Part shown: positions 3,592-25,707 of the stretch, in pieces | Numbering within the stretch: the first letter of the stretch is position 1 | Layout of the letters: every line of letters begins with the position of its first letter | Assembly (NCBI GenBank): GCA_918797485.1 | Contig: CAKKNE010000001.1 | Coordinates: 4,278,001 to 4,342,000 of the forward strand | DNA: 64,000 nt | From: Pelagomonas calceolata | Lineage: Eukaryota | Reading direction: 5' to 3' | Notes under the pieces: generated by a model | What the model was told of the DNA's origin: nothing | The model's input: the letters and a program-made list of their open reading frames with translations, nothing else | Databases searched by the model: none | Made by a program: the position numbers and the translations under genes

Positions 3592-5063
3592 ATGCAAGTG
3601 AGCATGCAAGTCTGGTTCCTGCTCCTGGCAGCGCTGCCGACTGGCGTATCGTCCGGTGTCTGCTCCCGCGCACCAAAACGTGGCGTGGCCGTGCACACGG
3701 CACAAACGTGTGACGTGCTCGACGCGCACAAGAGGTCATCGTGGTGGTACAGCTGGGGCCTCGGGACCGGCTTCGACGGCAGCTTCTGCGCCACGCCAGA
3801 CGATGCGGCGGCCCGGGCCCGCGCGAGCATGGACTTCGTGCCCATGTTTTGGGGCGAGGGTCACATCAACGACTTCGTTGCGGCGCCCGAGGCGTGGCAC
3901 CACGAGCTCGACCAGGCGTCGTACCTTCTGACGTGCATGATCCGTGCCCCTTGACTTTCCAAAGAGCCCGACGCACTTTCGAAAGAGCCTGACGCCATCG
4001 ACGCAGGTTCAACGAGCCCGAATTCTCGGCGCAAGCCAACATCTCCCCGCGCCGCGCCGCGCAGCTGTGGCCGACCCTCGTCGAAATCGCCCAGAACTAC
4101 AGTCTGGAGCTCGTGGCGCCGTGCGTTAGTGCTGGCGTCCACGGCGAGCGGTGGTGGGCGCCGTGGCAAAGTAATTGCACGGCGCTGCACGGGAGCTGTG
4201 AGTTTGACTACGGCTGCACGCACAACTACTTCCAGCCCGCGCCCTGCCGCGACGACGTGTCCTGGTGGGCCTGCGTGGGCAACGGCGACGACGGGACGGA
4301 GCACCTGGAGCAGGAGCTTCAGACGTGGTACGAGAACACGGGAGGAAAACCCATCTGGGTCACGGAGTTCGCCTGTAATCCCTGGGCTGAGCGGTCTTGT
4401 AATGCGAGTTTGCACTCGCGACTCATGGATCAGGTGGTGCCCGTACTCGAGGCGTCGCCGCTCGTGAATCGGTACGCGTGGTTCGCCGCGTACGAGGCCG
4501 CGTCCATGCCGGGCAACGCGCTAAACCGCGAGACCTGGAGTCAGTTGACGTCGTTCAGCTGCCCGAACAACTCGTGGACCGCGGGCTACGGCGACGCCTC
4601 GTGGCAGATCCAGACGAACGCCGAGTGCGTGGCAGCAGCGGAAGCGGACGCTTCGTGCGCGACGCCCCTCGTCCTCAACATCGGCTGGGACGCGTGCTAC
4701 TGCGCGACGGACGCCTGCGACGCGCCCGTCGCTACGAGCTACATGACGACGTACCGCTACGCCGGGGACGGTCAAGGCCTCGCGCCGCTCGGCGAGCGCT
4801 ACGAGAACTTTTCGTGGGAGAGTCCGTGTCAGCCGTCACGAGCGCCGACGCTGTCGCCGACTCTGTCGCCGACTCTGTCGCCGACTCTGTCGCCCACTGT
4901 CGGGGCGCTCTCGTCGTCGTCGTCGTCGTCGTCCGACAAGCCGGGGACAGTGACAATTGTCTTGATGGTGATCCTCGCTGTTGGCATCTGTGCATGTGTT
5001 GGAGTGACGTTATTCTATTGTGGACGGACGTGCCGCGGATTATGGGATTTGAGAGGTCAATAA
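3592..5063 (+). CDS. Membrane-anchored GH128-like (Glyco_hydro_cc) beta-1,3-glucanase, 2 exons (intron 3933-4006)
   Basis: Signal peptide, WWYSWG, FVPMFWG; splicing the GT..AG intron restores LLTFNEP in frame; KPIWVTEF and RYAWF motifs; PTLS linker and C-terminal TM helix. Confidence 0.8.
3933..4006 (+). other. Spliceosomal intron (74 nt) containing the CGCCATCGACGC motif
   Basis: AC|GTGCATG...GACGCCATCGACGCAG|G joins the 3484 and 4113 ORF frames and restores the catalytic NEP. Confidence 0.85.
4844..4898 (+). repeat. 12-nt coding tandem repeat (PTLS) x4
   Basis: ccgactctgtcg repeated in the stalk of the GH128 gene. Confidence 0.9.
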
Positions 5064-5592: not shown

Positions 5593-6636
5593 TTAACGCA
5601 ACTCCGCGGAACCCGCAGCAGGCAACGCACCCGTGTACCGCCCCGCGAAGTCGTAGGGAGACCCCTCTTCGTCGATGACCCAGAACATTGCGCCCCGCAA
5701 GCCCGCCGATTGCACGGCGCGCGCGGCGTCTTCGGGCTCCACTCTGATGAATTTCTCGTTGTCGGCCCAGCCGTTCGCGAAGCCGAGCAGCAGCTTCTCG
5801 CGCGGCACTCGGACGACGTCGGCCCCGACGGTCACGCCTTTCGTGGATAGGCCGGCGGCGACCTCTTCTGCGTACGTTGCCAGCGCGGCGCCGCCGCGCG
5901 TCAGCGCGTAGCAGGCCGACGAGTAGCCCTCGTAGAGCTGCACCGAGACGGCGTCGACGCTGTCCATGCCGGCCCGGGCCAGGACCGCGGCGTAGGCGTT
6001 GCGCCCGGCGTAGGGAAAGCCCGCCGCGGGAAAGCCGTTCTCGCCCGGCCGCCACGGCGCGCGCGGCTCATGATTTAACAGCAGGTCGACCTCCGCCGAG
6101 CCCGCGTCGAGGTACGACTCCGCGGGCGCTAGAGCGATCAGATACCCATGTCGCTTCGCCTCCCTGCAAAAGTCCGCCACGAGCGCCACCATCGCTTCAC
6201 TCAAGTTCTGAGACGCGTCGTCGTTGCCCTCGAGGTCCCAGTCGCACCCGTCAAATACAAAGCCGTGCGCCACGTTCCACGCGCGCCAGACCTCGAACCA
6301 CGCTCGGCCGTCGAGCTTCTCGTCGGGGTGCGGCCCGTTCCAGCCGCCGAACGCGACCAAGTGCCGCACGTCCAATTGCTCCGCTTCCAGTCGTTTCTGC
6401 GTCGCCCTTACCAGGTCCACGTCAAAGGTCGGTCTGACGCGCGGCACGTCGTCCTCGACCTCGAGGTGGGCGAACGACCAGATGACGACGTTGACGCCCT
6501 GGCGGCACGCGGCGACGACCCTGTCCTCGCGCAGACTACGGTCTGTCGCGTAGCCGACGAGCAGGCGGCCCTTCGGCAGAGCGCGCTCGGGCGTCGACAG
6601 CGCGGCCGCGGCTGCTACCGACATGGCAAAGAGCAT
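5593..6636 (-). CDS. GH18 (chitinase-like) glycoside hydrolase
   Basis: LVGY, VVIWSFA, VAFGGWNG, catalytic FDGCDWDLE (DxxDxDxE), VQLY, GAMFW. Confidence 0.8.
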   Translation of the reverse strand: MLFAMSVAAAAALSTPERALPKGRLLVGYATDRSLREDRVVAACRQGVNVVIWSFAHLEVEDDVPRVRPTFDVDLVRATQKRLEAEQLDVRHLVAFGGWNGPHPDEKLDGRAWFEVWRAWNVAHGFVFDGCDWDLEGNDDASQNLSEAMVALVADFCREAKRHGYLIALAPAESYLDAGSAEVDLLLNHEPRAPWRPGENGFPAAGFPYAGRNAYAAVLARAGMDSVDAVSVQLYEGYSSACYALTRGGAALATYAEEVAAGLSTKGVTVGADVVRVPREKLLLGFANGWADNEKFIRVEPEDAARAVQSAGLRGAMFWVIDEEGSPYDFAGRYTGALPAAGSAELR

Positions 6637-18665: not shown

Positions 18666-19829
18666 CTACCACGGGCCGGTGTGCCAGTGGGTGTCGTCGG
18701 GACCGCCGCAGCCGCTACTGTTCGGGGTTCTGATCCTGTAGTAGCACTGCCAGAACGAGAGGACGTTCCAGGCGACGCCGTTTGGCAGACCAAACACGAA
18801 TCCGAGGATGGCGTTCGACGTCTTCGCGCGTCTCTTGAGCGCCAGCGCCCGGAGAACGAGGATCTGCTTTCGCGGCCGCACGAAGCACGCCTTGTATGCG
18901 GCGCTGCTGTTCATGGACGAAGGCGCGGAGCTCGACAGGGCGAAGGCATACGATCCGCCGCCGGCCGCTCTCACCTCTCGGACCAAAATACTGCACTTTT
19001 GCCAGACGGCGAGTTGTCGCGTTTCGAAGGCTGCCTTGTCTAATCTCCACTCTGCCGTCTTGAGGTTCCAATGGTCGTCCTCCTCATTGGTGCAATTATC
19101 TAACGACGCGCCGGCGAGCAGCAACGCCCGGCAGACAAACTCCAGCCCCCGAAATTGAGTGTCCCTGGAATTACGTCCTTCCATTAGGGTCAGGAGTTCG
19201 CCCAGAGGCGAATATCTTTTCGCCGTTGGATCATCTGGATAGTATTTGGAAGGGATAAGTGCGTTGACCTCGGCGCCGCCGGCAATGAGCAGCATGATTA
19301 TCTCGTGCTTGTTTGCAGTGAAGTTATACGATGGCGAATACATGACTTCGTGACTCGTGCACGCAAAATCCAGCGGCGACCACCCATCCGCGTTTCGTAT
19401 GGTTGGATCGGCGCCGCACGCCAGCAGCCAGCGAACGAGTGCCACGTGGCCGCTGTAATAAGCAGGCGAATGCGCGACCAGGGCCAGCAGCGTGTGGCCT
19501 GAAACGGGCTCCGCACCTACGCGCTTCGCGAGATACGGTTCCGTGAGCGTGAACGTCTCGTTTATGTCGCGCGGTCCCGTGGCGTCGAACCAAGCTACCA
19601 CCGCGTCCTTGTCTCCTTCGTTGAAGAGTTTCTTGAAGACGTCCACGGGGAGCCCCGGACCGCCGCTGCTCGAGAGGCCCAACTTCTCCAGCTTACGCGG
19701 TGGCGGTAATCTCATGTGGGCGGCGCGTCGCTTACGCTCCCGCTCGGCGCGTGCAATCTCGTCGACTTCTAGGGCGCGGAGCTCGTCGACGACGCGGGCC
19801 TCAGCAGTTTCATTGTTTTCAGTCTCCAT
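18666..19829 (-). CDS. Ankyrin-repeat protein with C-terminal LPNGVAWNVLSFW motif
   Basis: LVRWLLACGADPTIRNADGWSPLDFAC, LLIAGGAEVNA, LLLAGASLD. Confidence 0.7.
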   Translation of the reverse strand: METENNETAEARVVDELRALEVDEIARAERERKRRAAHMRLPPPRKLEKLGLSSSGGPGLPVDVFKKLFNEGDKDAVVAWFDATGPRDINETFTLTEPYLAKRVGAEPVSGHTLLALVAHSPAYYSGHVALVRWLLACGADPTIRNADGWSPLDFACTSHEVMYSPSYNFTANKHEIIMLLIAGGAEVNALIPSKYYPDDPTAKRYSPLGELLTLMEGRNSRDTQFRGLEFVCRALLLAGASLDNCTNEEDDHWNLKTAEWRLDKAAFETRQLAVWQKCSILVREVRAAGGGSYAFALSSSAPSSMNSSAAYKACFVRPRKQILVLRALALKRRAKTSNAILGFVFGLPNGVAWNVLSFWQCYYRIRTPNSSGCGGPDDTHWHTGPW

Positions 19830-19959
19830 CGAATTTTGGCTTGAGGATCGGTACTTCAGGCGATATGCGTCGGCCGGTCGCATTGTCAGAAGGTTACTAA
19901 GGCAATATAGACACGCGCGTCTGGCCTCTACGCGTTTGTTTGCCGATGCGATTTTGCCA

Positions 19960-19982
19960 GCTAGCGGCCTGTAACACACTAG
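19960..19982. promoter_or_regulatory. Representative copy of recurrent intergenic motif GCTAGCG-N-GTAASACACTAG
   Basis: gctagcggcctgtaacacactag; related copies at about 5536, 8361, 11242, 27818, 28852, 30551, 33282, 38112, 42218 and 54863. Confidence 0.7.
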
Positions 19983-20133
19983 GGATGCTGGCAAGCTCGT
20001 GACAACTGGCTGGATAGCAGCGAGGAAAGTCGTTGCGAGCTAAATCACATCGCTGCGAGCCGCATCGCTGCGAGCCGAACCAGCTGCGGCAATTTCCGTG
20101 CAACAAATTGGAGAGATAGCACAGCGAGCTGCC

Positions 20134-21006
20134 ATGGCTAACAAGCAACAAAAGTCCCTCACCAAAGTAGGACTAGCAGGAGGGATAGCCGGATCAATGG
20201 AAATAGCGGTCACCTACCCGCTCGAGTACGTGAAGACGAACGTGCAATTGCAGCACGGCGCCGCGGGCACCGGCAGTGGATACAACGGCGCTATCCATTG
20301 CTTTCGCCAAACGATAAAAACAAATGGCTTGAGGGGCCTCTACAGCGGCTGCGCGCCGTGGTTCGCGTTCGCCGGGCCCCGGTCGGCCGTCCGCTTTGCA
20401 GCCTTTGAATTTTTGTCAAAAGACGCGCCCAGGACGTCGGGCTGGGACTTTTTATGCGGCTTGGGCGCGGGCGCGTGTGAGGCCGCTCTCTGCCAGACGC
20501 CGAACCAGTCGATACAAATAAAACTGCTACACGACGCCTCTCCAGCAGTCGTAGAGAAGCGCTACTCGCACCTACCTTTCTTCCGGGCCTGTGCGGCGAT
20601 AGGAAGGCACCACGGCATCTTATCATTTTATGACGGCCTGGCGCCGGCCGTGGCGAAGGGCGCGCTCACGAACTGCGTGCGCTTCGTCGGCTATAAGGGT
20701 ATACTGCGGGCTTCCGGGAGAGAAGAAAATGCGTCGGCGATGGAGTCGTTCGGGGCCGGCGCCGTCGCTGGGGCTATATCGGCGGTAATCTCGCAGCCAG
20801 TCGACACGGTCAAGGCGAACATGATGGGCCTCGATCGGGGCGTTTACGCGTCGTCGCTGGACTGCGCGCGCGCCATCGTGAAGGCCGACGGCGTGCGAGC
20901 GCTGTGGAACGGCGGCGGGCCGCGCGTCGTGCGCGTCTTCTTCGAGGTGGGCCTGCAATTCGCGCTGTTCGGGGAGGTGTCGAAGCTCGTCGATAAGTTG
21001 TGGTAA
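20134..21006 (+). CDS. Mitochondrial carrier (SLC25), citrate/tricarboxylate-carrier-like
   Basis: Three Px(D/E)xx(K/R)-like signatures (YPLEYVK, TPNQSIQIK, QPVDTVK); RSAVRF and TNCVRF. Confidence 0.85.
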   Translation: MANKQQKSLTKVGLAGGIAGSMEIAVTYPLEYVKTNVQLQHGAAGTGSGYNGAIHCFRQTIKTNGLRGLYSGCAPWFAFAGPRSAVRFAAFEFLSKDAPRTSGWDFLCGLGAGACEAALCQTPNQSIQIKLLHDASPAVVEKRYSHLPFFRACAAIGRHHGILSFYDGLAPAVAKGALTNCVRFVGYKGILRASGREENASAMESFGAGAVAGAISAVISQPVDTVKANMMGLDRGVYASSLDCARAIVKADGVRALWNGGGPRVVRVFFEVGLQFALFGEVSKLVDKLW

Positions 21007-21016
21007 CATGTATTTC

Positions 21017-23912
21017 TTACAAACAAAACGTGGCGAGCTCCTTCTTCTGGAGTCCTGATTGGGCGATGGCGTTGCCCTTAGTAGCTGGGGCCGCGGCCTT
21101 CTGCTTTGCGGTCGCGGCGACCGCGTCGAAGGGTGCCAGGACCTCATCCACAAACGCCGGCACCAGGTCCTTCTGGTGCTTGAAGTACTTGTGCACGAGG
21201 TGGCGCATCGACAGCGCGTTCTGGGGCGCCCGCGGGTCGTAGGCGACGCCTTCTCTTGTGCGGAGGAATATTGGGTCGCGCGTCAGGCGGTTGATCCAGG
21301 CTATAACTTTCGGGCACTGCTCTTCGATTTTGGTACCGCCGTCCGCGTCGAAGTTCCGCGTCATCATGACCGTGATACCAGCAAGGAAGATAAACCTCCA
21401 ATCGCTCCACCCGGGAGCAGAACCGCCCGAGAGGTAGTCGTGGTCCTGCAGGTACGCATCCAGGAGCTTCAGCCGCTCGACGAACGCCGTCAGCTTCTCC
21501 TCTTTAGCAGAAGCCTTGGCGGCGTCGCGCACATCGCGCACGAGGACCGGTAATGATGCTTGAAAACCAAACCACGGCATCATGAGCCCCGGCATCACGT
21601 CGGCATCCGCAACGGGAAACCCTTCGCCCTTCGACGGCGCCAGCCGCTCCAGTAATTTAGTGGTGTCGATGACGAACTCCGCCGAGCCGTCCGCCTTCTT
21701 TATCAAAGCACAGGGCGTCTCGGCTTTGGCTTCATTTTTTTCCACTAGATCTAAGAACCACTGGGGCTTATCCTCGAGGTCGATCCAGTGGCGCCGGAGC
21801 TTCCATCCAGCTTGAATACAGGCTGCATACACATTATCCGAGAAGATGCAGCTCTCGACGAGCTTGTCGCCTAGTCGGAGACCGCCCGCGAATAAATGAA
21901 CGTCTACATCTTCAAAAGCTAGTAAAGGCGCACTCCCGGAGGCGAACGCGTCGTACGGCGCCAGGACTTCGTCGACGAACGATGGCAGCAGGTCGGCCTG
22001 GTGCTTAAAGTACTTGCCTACCATTTTCTGCATAGCCGCGCAATTCGCGGGCAGCCGCGGATCGAAGTTGAGGCCGCACCGCGCCTTGAGGACGACGGGA
22101 TCCTTGGAGCAGCGCTCGACCCACGCCTTCACGCGCGGGCACTGGCTCTGCACATAGGCCGCACCTTCCGGATCACACACGCGCGAGAACATATCAACGA
22201 ATCCTACAAAGAAGATGTACCGCAAGTCCGACCAGCCGATCTTGGCGCTGTCCGAAAGGTAGTCCCGCCCATCCAGATAGGCGTCGATTGGCCGTAGTTT
22301 GTCCACAAACTTGTCCAATTTCAAGCGACTCTCGGCCCACTTCTCCGCGTTCTGCAGGTCGCGCACCGTGACCTGCGTGGAATGAATTGTTGAGAACACG
22401 CCATCGCCGCGACTCGTGTGATTCCGCGCCGACCGCGACGGGCACGGAAGCCTGATACCCAAACCAGCTCATGAGCATGCCGGGAGAAACGTCCGCCGGC
22501 TCGACGGCCATGCCGACGCCGTCGTACGGCGCCAGCCGCGCCAGCACCTTGGCCGTGTCAGTGACGAACTCGCCGCCCGGCAGTAAAACGCAGGGCGTCT
22601 CGGCCTTGGCGCCGTAGTCGCTGACGAGGTCGAGGAACCACTGGGGCTTCGCCGCCAAGTCGATGAAGTGCCTCTTCACCCTTAGTCCTTTCGCCTCACA
22701 GGCGGCGTACGCATTTTCCGAGAAAACGCAGTTCGGCCGCAGCCGGTCCCCCAGCTTCAAACCACCGCAAAAGACGTGAACATCTATATCGTTGAAGTGG
22801 AGCGACGGCGGCGGGACGTTCGGGTTCGCTGTCGGTGGTGCGGCTACCGACGCGGCGGCCTCCGTGTCGTCGAGGCGGTGAAAATCCAGCACGACCTTGC
22901 CATTTTCATCTCTACGAGTCATCCAGCTGAAGTGCTGATCAAAAATCGCGTCCTTCGCGCAGAGGTACGTGTGCTTGCACATCAAATCATCATGATACAC
23001 CGTATCTCTCCCTAAGACCGTGACGCTCAAGGCGTTCGACTCATCACAAAAAGCCTCGCGATCGAATGTGTCGTCTTTGACGTATTTTCCGAGGGGCGAT
23101 TTTTCGTCGATGACGTGCGAGACCGTCAGGACGCCCGTCATCGCAGAAGACACCGTCTCGAGCTGGAGCTCGTTCTGCCCAATGTAGGACTCGCCTTCTT
23201 GCGTCGCGTGCGGCGTCAGAAATAAGACGCGGATCTCCGGGTGCAAGATGAGGTTACACCGTCGGTTCGCGAGTCGGATGAGCAGGACGCGCTTGCCGTC
23301 GCGCTTCGTGACGCAGAAGTGGCTCGCGAAGACTAATCGACTTCGCGGTTGCTGGAACTTCGAGACGACGACGGCGAAGCAGACGACGTTGAGCATGAGA
23401 CCGAGCGCCATCTGCACGATGCCCGCGAAGTAGGCGCCCTTCGTCGACACATTGACCTCGCCGTAGCCCATCGTCACGACATTAGCCGCAGCATACATGA
23501 TGGCCGTCCACCAGGTGCCCGTGCCGTCGAAGCCGAGGCCTCGCGCGCACAGCAGGTTGACGATAGTCGAGACCAGCACGATTGCAGTGTACGCCGCGAG
23601 CACATGTAGTAACAGCGCCGGCCAATGCAACTTCAGCGTGGAAAAATACAAATCATCAGCGTCGGCAAGCAAGCCGCCGGCGTGGTCGATGGCCGCCTTG
23701 CTCTTCGCGGCGCGCTCCTTCGCTTTCAGGACCTTCGTGCGCTCGCTCGCTTCCCGGTACGCCACGATGCGCTGGCTCATTTGCCGGCGGAGCTGGCCCG
23801 GTCCTGATGAGCTCCTCTTGGCACGCTGCGCGAATGACTTCATCCGTGCTATCGTTTTGAGGCTCGGGGTCGGTTCTTTCGTCTCCTCGGCGGCGGCGAC
23901 CTTGGCCGTCAT
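21017..23912 (-). CDS. Inward-rectifier (Kir-type) K+ channel fused to two DHAR/CLIC-like GST domains, 2 exons (intron 22373-22439)
   Basis: TMGYG filter, KFQQP..RLVFAS, IRLANRR, HVIDEKSPL (Kir); then two domains with NCVFS/SCIFS..IDL..KPQWFLDL..ETPC; CCC|GTCGCG...CACGCAG|GTC joins the ORFs in frame. Confidence 0.8.
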
Positions 23913-24123
23913 CGCGCGGCTGCTCCGACGAGTCGTGCGTTGTCTGTGAGGCTGCCCCGTAGTCCGTTTGTCTGTTCGATCGTCACGGGCTCAGCTTGGG
24001 TCTGCGGCGCTGGGGCGACCGCGCTGTAGACCCGAATATGTCGAGTTGATTTGACTCGATTTGCTCGAACGAGGTCTTGTTTGTTGTTGGCAAGCCTGCG
24101 CACTTCAAATAGAATTCCTAGAC

Positions 24124-25707
24124 TTAAACACCCCGGTCCTCCCCCGGCTCGAGCGTCCGATGAAATTCCGAGAAATCCACGAGACAAGACCCGCCCGGCT
24201 GCCGAAACACGCACGGCGCGAAGTTGTGCCACCACGCGAAGTTCTCGATCGCGTAGGAATGTCTAGCTTGCACTAACCGCGACGTGATCTCGTCGCAGCC
24301 CTCGACGATGGCCACGATCTCGACGTCGCGGTCGAAGAAGAACGCGTCGAGCGCCGCCCGAAACTCCGCGTCCTCGGACGCTGTTGGACCGCGAGCAAAG
24401 TGCGCCTGCCGCCCCGGCGGTGGCGGCGTCGAGGGCTCCTCCTCTTCGGTGTCGAACGAGCCCGAGACGTCGTCGCTCACGTGCGACGCCGAGTGCGTGA
24501 AGGGCGCGAACATGCGCGACTCGACGCTCGGCCGTCGTCGGTGGATGCGCTGTTTTGGAGGAGGTTTGCCGACCTTGTGCGGCGACGGGATCGCGGCCGC
24601 GTTCGTGCGGAAGGAGTCGCCTCGCTCGAACCTAGGTTTGTGGCCTTCGCCGAAGGTGGGAGACGCCATGACGTTCGGCGACAGCCCGCGCCAGCTTCGA
24701 GGCCCCCTTGCACTAATCCACGTCTCCGCCGGGACTAACGGAGACGCCGCGTCCAGTTTATGAACCACGAGCTGCGGCAAAGCCATCAACAGCAGCCCGC
24801 CCGTATCATCTCGAGGTCTTCGTAACTGCATGCGGTGCGCCTGATAATACGCAGCCCCATGCTCGTCGCGCTCGTGCCGCACGGCGAAAACTCGAATTTT
24901 CGCATCCAGGAGGTGGTGCCGTCGCAATTCGCAGACCTGAAACACGAGGTAGTAGGAGCCGTCGACCCTTCGTACTACCGCTTTATCCGAGAACAGGACC
25001 GTCGACTGGCGGTGTCGACCCCGCGTCAGGCGATGGAATATAATCCCAAAGTATAACGACTCAATCACCAGCCCGCACACGACCTGCACGTTGATGATGG
25101 CCAGCGGCTCCCAGCAGTGCCCGAAGAAGTAATCTTGAGTACCATACCCAATCGTCGCCATCGTCTCCAGGCTGAAGTAATAGGCTTCTAATCTATCCCC
25201 AAAATCCATGCCGCATTCATCAGAAAAAGAGAGGTAGCCCACGCCAAACACAAAGACGCAGGCCACGTAGATGATGACCATCAAGAACAGTAACCGTAGT
25301 ATAGGTAAATGTACTATGGTATTAAACCAATCGTCCAAATACATGTGCACCCAGTCGCCGCCCACTCGCTTAATGTTCCATCTTCCAACAGACTGGTGGT
25401 CGTACGAGTCCCGCAACAAAATTCGCGAGCGCCGCTGCGACACCTCGGCGCCTTCCGCGAAAGACCTTCGCCGCGCCTCCTCGCGCTCCCGGATCTCCTC
25501 GTACATCTCCCGTCTCCCTCGCGCCCGCTGCGGCGTCACGGTGCGCCGCATCGAGGCCCAGAGTCGTCTCGCGGCGCCGGCCATGCGCTCGTTCCACGGT
25601 GGAGACTCTATTCGCATCGCCGTGCCGTGTAGCGACGGCGAGCCGTAAGTGGTTGGCGTCTCGAGCGCGGCTTGCCTTAGCGTCTGCGCGCGCGGCGACG
25701 ACGCCAT
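24124..25707 (-). CDS. Inward-rectifier (Kir-type) potassium channel
   Basis: DDWFNTIV, YYFSLETMATIGYG, VLFSDKAVV, VVHKLDAASPL, EIVAIVEG.DE.T...QARHSY. Confidence 0.88.
   Translation of the reverse strand: MASSPRAQTLRQAALETPTTYGSPSLHGTAMRIESPPWNERMAGAARRLWASMRRTVTPQRARGRREMYEEIREREEARRRSFAEGAEVSQRRSRILLRDSYDHQSVGRWNIKRVGGDWVHMYLDDWFNTIVHLPILRLLFLMVIIYVACVFVFGVGYLSFSDECGMDFGDRLEAYYFSLETMATIGYGTQDYFFGHCWEPLAIINVQVVCGLVIESLYFGIIFHRLTRGRHRQSTVLFSDKAVVRRVDGSYYLVFQVCELRRHHLLDAKIRVFAVRHERDEHGAAYYQAHRMQLRRPRDDTGGLLLMALPQLVVHKLDAASPLVPAETWISARGPRSWRGLSPNVMASPTFGEGHKPRFERGDSFRTNAAAIPSPHKVGKPPPKQRIHRRRPSVESRMFAPFTHSASHVSDDVSGSFDTEEEEPSTPPPPGRQAHFARGPTASEDAEFRAALDAFFFDRDVEIVAIVEGCDEITSRLVQARHSYAIENFAWWHNFAPCVFRQPGGSCLVDFSEFHRTLEPGEDRGV

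What the first reader, a model, noticed from the sequence alone, without database searches (positions are those of the whole stretch)
21017..23912. Inward-rectifier K+ channel fused to two tandem DHAR/CLIC-like glutathione-transferase domains
Seen: two overlapping minus-strand ORFs join in frame on removing a 67-nt GT-AG intron (22373-22439). The junction restores GYQASVPVTVRD, which mirrors GFQASLPVLVRD in the second repeat. The product has a Kir pore (TMGYG) and cytoplasmic domain, then two repeats (about 22790-21950 and 21910-21130) with NCVFS/SCIFS, IDL..KPQWFLDL and ETP. Established: plant DHARs carry GDCPFS...KPQWFL...KVP and CLICs carry NCPFS, and Kir channels are regulated by S-glutathionylation. 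Inference: a K+ channel with built-in GSH/ascorbate redox sensors that keep the active-site Cys, analogous in logic to bacterial glutathione-gated KefC but built from different parts. I do not know this architecture from characterised proteins.
Basis: partly seen in the sequence, partly recalled or inferred. Interest (0 to 1): 0.85.

Follow-up and report, generated by a model that had tools for sequence, protein, structure and literature searches.

The report
Potassium channel fused to glutathione enzymes
A marine picoalga expresses one gene that joins a Kir-type potassium channel to two glutathione-transferase-like domains with an active-site cysteine, part of an unstudied protist family that likely ties ion flow to the cell's glutathione redox state.

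Summary
Observation confirmed. Stranded RNA reads splice exactly 22373-22439 (16 reads, 4 of 4 runs, one sample), and single spliced contigs span the gene. The 942-aa product equals a recorded, uncharacterised Pelagomonas calceolata protein. Kir and the first GST N-domain share one open frame, and a 77%-identical ortholog lacks this intron. Channel and both GST modules are under purifying selection (dN/dS 0.03-0.08).

It belongs to a family: five divergent groups join the same Kir clade to one or more Cys-GST modules. Tandem copies arose repeatedly, so the fusion matters, not the doubling. The modules fold like DHAR, CLIC and omega GSTs (tied) and keep the catalytic Cys and most glutathione contacts, but lose DHAR's Pro21 and Asp19. 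They are not DHARs, and ascorbate sensing is unsupported. The channel has Asn at the rectification site, a drifting filter, and a CD-loop Cys in 9 of 9 family Kirs versus 0 of 7 others.

Best reading (0.5): a thiol/glutathione-regulated K+ channel carrying its own thioltransferase; gating is untested. No paper found; the domain pair appears only in an annotation table. This scan noted it before in another genome.

The parts
22440..23912 (-). Exon 1 coding part (aa1-491): basic N-terminal arm, Kir channel, linker, N-domain and start of the C-domain of GST module 1
   Evidence: transcript contigs reach 24012
22857..23663 (-). Kir channel body (aa84-352): M1, pore helix, filter, M2, cytoplasmic domain; KirBac-like
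   Evidence: IRK_C and Ion_trans_2; KirBac1.1 3e-19; Foldseek KirBac3.1
23460..23474 (-). Selectivity filter TMGYG (aa147-151); the pore-helix Glu position is Ala143
23256..23258 (-). Cys219 in the CD-loop motif N-x-R-C-N, invariant in GST-associated Kirs; candidate redox switch
   Evidence: 9 of 9 family rows, 0 of 5 control rows; KirBac1.1 has Q and Kir2.2 has K
22373..22439 (-). 67-nt GT-AG intron, phase 0, inside GST module 1; absent in the 77% ortholog
21926..22790 (-). Cys-GST module 1 (aa375-640); Cys395 in CVFS at 22728-22730, Lys422, cis-Pro440, Asp452-Thr453
21113..21910 (-). Cys-GST module 2 (aa646-911); Cys666 in CIFS at 21848-21850, Lys693, Pro711, Asp727-Thr728
21017..22372 (-). 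Exon 2 coding part (aa492-942) and stop
21020..21028 (-). C-terminal Phe-Cys-Leu at the end of a variable tail; [FL]-C-[LV]-stop recurs across the family
24124..25704 (-). Neighbouring, separately transcribed stand-alone Kir of the Kir2-like type; context only

Best explanation
This expressed gene encodes a KirBac-like channel subunit followed by two cysteine-type glutathione-transferase modules, and the modules likely act as a tethered thioltransferase that adds or removes glutathione on the channel's own conserved cysteine and so would set K+ flux by the cell's glutathione redox state. Shown: one spliced mRNA, one 942-aa protein, Kir and GST folds, conserved catalytic Cys and most glutathione contacts, purifying selection on every domain, and a family that keeps the fusion. 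Inferred steps: (1) four subunits form a weakly rectifying K+ pore with eight modules hanging in the cytosol; (2) Cys395 and Cys666 form mixed disulfides with glutathione, as omega, lambda, DHAR and CLIC proteins do; (3) they exchange with Cys219 in the CD loop, where the cytoplasmic domain meets the gate, possibly through the penultimate Cys941 on the flexible tail; (4) by analogy with Kir6.1 and Kir5.1, glutathionylation would close the channel and the modules would reopen it once GSH/GSSG recovers. The direction of gating is a guess.
For: Fusion is real and expressed and lies in one open frame in the ortholog and in distant relatives. Five groups, about 30% identical to each other where compared, keep Kir followed by GST. 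Their Kir parts form one clade apart from the neighbouring Kir and four bacterial KirBacs (100/99, long branches). With the Cys column masked in the profile, Cys is found in 98 of 102 covered domain hits and in 18 of 19 covered representatives. Lys47-equivalent is kept in 17 of 18, cis-Pro in 18 of 18, and Ser/Thr73 in 17 of 18 (AtDHAR2 contacts from PMC5307357). dN/dS against ortholog L005: Kir TM 0.074, cytoplasmic domain 0.028, GST1 0.030/0.081, GST2 0.045/0.080. Cys219 is in 9 of 9 family Kirs and 0 of 7 others. Glutathionylation inhibits Kir6.1 and Kir4.1/5.1, and glutaredoxin rescues the KATP channel (PMC11631806, passages).
Against: No activity, binding or current was measured. The canonical Pro after the catalytic Cys is lost (1 of 19) and the Lys59-equivalent is never Lys (0 of 18), so catalysis may be altered. 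The linker is the least conserved internal region (57% against L002) and has low pLDDT, so mechanical coupling is not evident. The control set for Cys219 is only 7 sequences, and the family rows are kin, so the Cys may be an inherited structural residue. The filter drifts across the family (GYG, GFG, GWG, GLG, GYTG). The same modules also occur in proteins without a visible Kir (P0010, P0030, P0037, P0052), though several of these look N-terminally cut.
Confidence: 0.5

Rival explanations
1. The modules are allosteric ligand sensors in the KefC manner: binding of GSH versus glutathione adducts or GSSG changes their packing on the cytoplasmic domain, with no chemistry on the channel's cysteines.
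For: Glutathione contacts are kept. Module number varies freely, like a dosage of sensors. KefC is inhibited by GSH and activated by adducts through its RCK domains (PMC11150392, passages).
Against: The catalytic Cys is nearly invariant and the channel carries its own family-specific Cys. The linker is variable.
Confidence: 0.15
2. The modules are ordinary detoxifying or deglutathionylating enzymes that use the channel as a membrane anchor and act on other targets; they do not gate it.
For: Related multi-module proteins occur without a visible Kir. Leishmania TDR1, a tandem GST, matches both modules (Foldseek 2.6e-11; VIA Z 14.3 at rmsd 16.8).
Against: The association persists across deeply diverged groups with one specific Kir clade, and that clade has distinctive gate-region residues.
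Confidence: 0.15
3. The Kir part is a non-conducting or non-K+-selective subunit, either a scaffold or a redox-sensing partner in heterotetramers with a canonical Kir such as the neighbouring gene.
For: The pore-helix Glu is Ala here; the Kir2-type Arg and outer Cys pair seen in the neighbour are missing; the G-loop reads D-x-V-[YF]-[HQ]-D-D; relatives have GWG or GLG filters. A canonical Kir lies next door, also in orthologous loci.
Against: This protein keeps TxGYG and its ortholog TxGFG, and the TM region has dN/dS 0.07. KirBacs also lack the outer Cys pair. The adjacency is part of whole-block synteny, and the distant relative L009 has no such neighbour.
Confidence: 0.13
4. The modules are true dehydroascorbate reductases and the channel senses the ascorbate redox couple.
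For: DHARs are the best N-domain matches by profile (2.8e-10) and rank first by structure (Z 16.1). PtGSTL1 has DHAR activity without Asp19 or Lys8 (PMC5307357).
Against: CPF[SC] is not met, Asp19 is absent in 17 of 17 and Pro21 in 18 of 19 representatives. CLIC1 (16.0) and GSTO2 (15.8) tie. Identity to DHAR1 is 17%. The C-domain's best sequence match is a tau GST.
Confidence: 0.05
5. The fusion is an annotation artefact of separate genes.
For: Read depth is higher over the 3' module.
Against: Kir and GST1-N share one open frame. Spliced contigs are gene-bounded, and orthologs and distant relatives have the fusion in one ORF.
Confidence: 0.01

Closest known systems
Prokaryotic KirBac1.1 / KirBac3.1 channels
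   Same: Best sequence match (3e-19 over aa86-363) and best Foldseek match: two TM helices, TxGYG, Ig-like cytoplasmic domain, no outer Cys pair.
   Different: They end after the cytoplasmic domain. No family member was found in GTDB genomes or IMG/VR by motif scan. Their pore helix reads E/Q-T rather than x-N, and they lack the CD-loop Cys.
Plant and algal DHAR, animal CLIC, omega and lambda Cys-GSTs
   Same: Fold (VIA Z 16.1 DHAR1, 16.0 CLIC1, 15.8 GSTO2, 14.5 GSTL1; rmsd 2.7-3.4 over about 190-210 residues), catalytic Cys, F/S of the motif, KPxW, cis-Pro, Asp-Ser/Thr.
   Different: Motif C-x-[FWY]-S without Pro; no Asp19; a G-[GA]-[LN]-[RK] loop before the Cys; an extra C-terminal helical extension; 13-17% identity; fused to a channel.
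Leishmania TDR1 (PDB 4ags)
   Same: Two GST domains in one chain; the entry aligns over both modules. A cited title describes it as capable of deglutathionylation (seen in the reference list of PMC6270436).
   Different: Soluble trimer without a channel; 13-14% identity; domain arrangement differs in the model (rmsd 17-18). Here the duplications are lineage-specific.
E. coli KefC/KefB glutathione-gated K+ efflux
   Same: Possible logic: a cytosolic domain reads glutathione status and controls K+ movement (PMC11150392).
   Different: KefC is a K+/H+ exchanger with Rossmann-fold RCK domains; it shares no domain with this protein.
Kir6.1 and Kir4.1/5.1, inhibited by S-glutathionylation
   Same: Kir fold and redox control through a channel cysteine (PMC11631806).
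   Different: No enzyme is fused, the target Cys lies in M2, and glutaredoxin acts in trans.
P. calceolata genes Pca_1p23780, Pca_1p27310, Pca_3p14430 (supplementary annotation table of PMC9481584)
   Same: Automatic InterPro rows with both Kir and GST domains: 3 of the 5 Kir rows in the searchable part; the first lies next to a plain Kir.
   Different: Never mentioned in that paper's main text (0 hits for 'potassium', 'glutathione', 'inward'); no function is assigned.

Membership tests
Kir (inward-rectifier-type) K+ channel superfamily | Two TM helices with pore helix plus Kir cytoplasmic domain | tested here: met
   IRK_C 7.6e-12 and Ion_trans_2 1.8e-5 above cut-off; helices 97-123, 134-147, 158-187; KirBac/Kir top hits
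Kir (inward-rectifier-type) K+ channel superfamily | T-x-G-[YF]-G selectivity filter | tested here: met
   TMGYG here, TMGFG in ortholog L002; distant relatives deviate
Kir (inward-rectifier-type) K+ channel superfamily | Tetrameric K+-selective conduction | not testable with these tools
   needs electrophysiology or flux assays
Strong rectifiers (Kir2-like) | Acidic M2 rectification residue, pore-helix Glu with post-filter Arg, outer Cys pair (roles recalled) | tested here: not met
   Asn175 aligns to Glu of the neighbour and Asp of Kir2.2; Ala143; no Arg or Cys pair
Cytosolic GST superfamily | Thioredoxin-like N-domain plus all-helical C-domain, cis-Pro, N-capping motif | tested here: met
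   VIA Z up to 16.1; Atlas TM 0.54-0.73 by query; GST_C above cut-off; P440, G537 and D540 conserved in at least 90% of 23 rows
Cys-GSTs (omega-like group) | Cys at the start of helix 1, aligned with the catalytic Cys | tested here: met
   aligns with DHAR CPFS; 98 of 102 covered hits with the column masked
Cys-GSTs (omega-like group) | Thioltransferase / deglutathionylation activity | not testable with these tools
   needs purified protein
DHAR | CPF[SC] motif (PMC4138524, PMC5307357) | tested here: not met
   CVFS and CIFS here; Pro in 1 of 19 representatives
DHAR | Ascorbate-site Asp19 and Pro21 | tested here: not met
   Asn394 / Ser665; Asp in 0 of 17 covered representatives
DHAR | Ascorbate-site Lys8, Phe104, Trp207, Lys210 | tested here: inconclusive
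   no residue-level alignment over these positions was obtained; Gly383 lies 12 before the Cys, but AtDHAR2 also has Gly at the structurally equivalent place
DHAR | Glutathione contacts Lys47, Lys59, Val60, Asp72, Ser73 | tested here: inconclusive
   Lys422, Asp452 and Thr453 kept; the Lys59 position is Glu438, as in CLIC1 (Glu63, PMC5307357)
CLIC | CPFS motif and CLIC-like_N profile match | tested here: not met
   no Pro; PF22441 not hit by P0093 at E 0.05, weakly hit by some relatives
Kef (KefB/KefC) | CPA2 exchanger domain plus KTN/RCK domain | tested here: not met
   neither domain in Pfam or NCBIfam scans; the comparison is of logic only

The most novel reading that the evidence does not exclude
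A previously undescribed class of 'chanzyme' in marine protists: a distinct Kir clade that carries its own cysteine-GST and a built-in thiol relay (active-site Cys, tail Cys, CD-loop Cys), so that glutathione redox directly opens or closes a K+ pore. It would be the first eukaryotic glutathione-gated K+ channel with the sensor in the same chain, kept from pelagophytes to Picozoa, where the order may be reversed.
Probability: 0.45. Interest if true: 0.88.

Novelty: new variant of a known kind. Interest (0 to 1): 0.7.

Why it matters
Redox control of Kir channels is known only as modification in trans, and glutathione-gated K+ flux with a built-in sensor only from bacterial Kef exchangers. A channel that carries its own Cys-GST would be a single-gene system in which to test how glutathione chemistry moves a Kir gate, and a possible genetically encoded link from redox state to membrane potential. 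Three of five annotated Kir genes of an abundant open-ocean picoalga have this build, so it may be central to how such cells answer light- or nutrient-driven oxidative stress (inferred).

Tried and rejected
Homolog search for proteins of 789-2250 aa with exon 2: none among 7997 scored candidates. This was a false negative, since the 942-aa record surfaced as a cluster member. The near-length search with repeat 2 gave 6 close fragments only. Single-sequence AlphaFold of repeat 2 failed (pLDDT 42) and was not used. The full-length model is middling (pLDDT 60, pTM 0.33): it supports domain folds, not their arrangement. A complex prediction of the GST module on the Kir domain was not available, so docking is open. 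Motif scans of GTDB genomes (0 of 92 candidates) and IMG/VR (0 of 94) found no relative; these need exact short motifs and are weak for absence. The Atlas listed no cluster with both Kir and GST families among 6 rows; it only covers clusters of 50 or more. The regex survey of modules selected for Cys and was replaced by a masked profile. An introner-like family for the intron was not supported inside the window (2 matches, 2.2 expected). Functional pairing with the neighbouring Kir was not accepted from adjacency alone. The TDR1 paper was not held. Literature searches that found no description of the fusion: 0 papers; 12 of 12 listed, titles and abstract starts; 15 of 85 listed; 12 of 7923 listed; 0 papers; PMC12749960 has 0 hits for GST. 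Most subscription journals are not searched.

Full report
Observation. The region holds two overlapping minus-strand frames, 22194-23990 and 21017-22468. Because 325 other GT/GC-AG pairs also open the frame, RNA was needed. Stranded polyA reads skip exactly this stretch in 4 of 4 runs (2, 6, 7 and 1 reads; one sample) and show the RNA on the minus strand. Contigs from 4 of 4 other runs carry the same joint. Two are single 2.9-kb contigs from 24012/24013 to 21008/21028 with no differences, separate from the upstream Kir. A third, about 9% divergent, keeps the joint, but its contig also runs into the convergent neighbour; the fourth is a seawater metatranscriptome. Three of these four runs are only guessed to be RNA, but they lack the intron. 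The product is letter for letter P0093, on record as an unnamed or 'potassium channel domain-containing' protein of Pelagomonas calceolata. Depth is higher at the 3' end, so an extra short transcript is not excluded.

The fusion does not depend on the intron. Kir and the first GST N-domain lie in one frame, and in loci L002-L004 (77% identical) aa1-666 are one open frame. Nei-Gojobori dN/dS against L005 is 0.03-0.08 for the six channel and GST regions and 0.12-0.17 for the two tails and the linker. Against L002, synonymous sites are saturated in 2 of 9 regions and the rest give 0.07-0.30.

Channel part. IRK_C and Ion_trans_2 pass their cut-offs. The best solved relatives are KirBac1.1 (3e-19) and KirBac3.1, ahead of animal Kirs. 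The filter is TMGYG. Asn175 aligns with the Glu of the neighbouring Kir and the Asp of Kir2.2; from recalled Kir physiology this predicts weak rectification. The pore-helix Glu is Ala143, and the Arg and outer Cys pair of Kir2 types are missing. The upstream gene (24124-25704) is a canonical Kir2-like channel, about 23% identical to this one.

GST part. Each repeat is a complete GST. GST_C passes and GST_N_2 is just under cut-off. A family profile hits DHARs best over the N-domain (2.8e-10) and phi/tau GSTs over the C-domain. Structure ranks DHAR1, CLIC1, GSTO2 and a silkworm omega GST within 0.4 Z (16.1-15.7), and the Atlas model agrees. Using the AtDHAR2 contacts (PMC5307357, passages), the glutathione site is mostly kept (Cys, Phe, Lys47, cis-Pro, Asp72, Ser/Thr73), Lys59 is Glu as in CLIC1, and the ascorbate contacts Asp19 and Pro21 are lost. 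With the Cys column masked, 114 domain hits gave Cys in 98, a gap in 12, Gly in 3 and Pro in 1. Among 20 representatives at 70% identity, 18 of the 19 covered have Cys; the Gly row (P0085) has an insertion just after its Cys. Many hits were first collected with a Cys-bearing query, so slight bias remains. All Cys-GST classes tabulated in PMC4138524 (passages) except beta have CP; this family has C-x-[FWY]-S. It is an unassigned omega-like Cys-GST lineage, not a DHAR or a CLIC.

Family. The exhaustive search with repeat 2 gave 28 hits; cluster look-ups, a profile search and a metagenome scan added more. Kir followed by GST in one frame occurs in five groups: this gene and its orthologs (2 modules); P0146/L009 (1; 20 cluster members); P0022/P0145 (1); P0034/P0018 (at least 2, truncated); and P0061/P0031 (2 and 1; P0061 seems to read through an intron). 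A sixth group, whose cluster holds a Picozoa record, has two modules ahead of a Kir fragment in one long frame, which may be a gene-caller merge. The nine family Kir rows form one clade apart from the neighbour and four plasmid KirBacs (100/99; long branches flagged; P0034 and P0031 were left out for lack of the TM part). In the module tree, copies from one protein group together in six cases, so doubling happened repeatedly or copies are homogenised, and one module per subunit is the likely ancestral state. A published annotation table of P. calceolata lists Kir plus GST domains for 3 of 5 Kir genes in its searchable part (PMC9481584 supplement file 4, cut when stored; file 5 unreadable).

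First, every family Kir has N-x-R-C-N in the CD loop (9 of 9, plus P0034), whereas the neighbour, four plasmid KirBacs, KirBac1.1 and Kir2.2 have R, N, T, Q, D, Q and K at that Cys. Second, complete family proteins end in [FL]-C-[LV] after a tail of variable sequence and length: P0093, P0010, P0021, P0022, P0023, P0024, P0028, P0030, P0031, P0037, P0145, P0146; the exceptions are truncated or read-through frames. Of 108 long frame ends in the window and loci, 7 match, all FCL, which I read as the family copies; this is a weak and redundant control. The tail Cys could be a mobile redox arm or a lipid-anchor site; neither was tested.

Mechanism. The most economical reading joins three conserved cysteines: a Cys-GST active site, a channel Cys beside the gate linker, and a tail Cys. 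S-glutathionylation inhibits Kir6.1 (Cys176) and Kir4.1/5.1 (Cys158), and glutaredoxin reverses the KATP inhibition (PMC11631806, passages). A fused thioltransferase would do that job in cis (0.5). Rivals are a KefC-like ligand sensor (0.15; PMC11150392, passages), an enzyme merely anchored by the channel (0.15), a non-conducting or non-selective subunit (0.13; the family filter drifts to GWG, GLG and GYTG), an ascorbate sensor (0.05) and an artefact (0.01). Nothing here measures binding, catalysis or current, and docking of the module on the channel could not be predicted.

Novelty. Five literature searches found no description of a Kir-GST fusion. The species' genome paper does not mention it in its text, and a 623-organism channel survey has no 'GST'; both were seen as term passages only. 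The parts are known and the pairing sits unremarked in automatic annotation, so this is a new variant of the channel-plus-regulatory-domain theme, with a direct experimental test. Interest 0.7.

Noticed in passing
window 24124-25704 (-): A second, canonical Kir2-like channel (TIGYG, outer Cys pair, Glu at the rectification site) directly upstream, with an insert of about 130 aa in its cytoplasmic domain; separately transcribed and 96% conserved in its core against L002.
   Followed up: partly
window 21006-21017: The stop codons of the plus-strand mitochondrial-carrier-like gene and of the Kir-GST gene are 10 nt apart, and both strands are transcribed in the bin that holds them, so the 3' ends probably overlap.
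   Followed up: no
window 22373-22439; L005 about 4426-4516; L002 about 5987-6050; P0085 near aa396: Intron positions differ among close orthologs (near codons 142, 396, 491, 666), which suggests recent intron gain. The window's intron is followed by GTC, repeating its own first three bases, and has imperfect inverted ends. No further copies were found in the window.
   Followed up: partly
P0029 / P0072 / P0073: Picozoa-linked long frame with two GST modules ahead of a Kir fragment of the same clade with an AVGYTG filter: a reversed architecture or two merged genes.
   Followed up: partly
P0146, P0022, P0145, P0061; L009 3971-5929: Family Kirs with non-canonical filters TMGWG and TMGLG; candidates for altered ion selectivity.
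   Followed up: partly
P0010, P0030, P0037, P0052: Multi-module Cys-GST proteins of the same family without a visible Kir, all ending in FCL; stand-alone enzymes or truncated fusions.
   Followed up: partly
window 18666-20039 (-): Ankyrin-like frame (by eye) between the SRP-receptor-like and carrier-like genes; only fragments match in orthologous loci, so it changes much faster than its neighbours.
   Followed up: no
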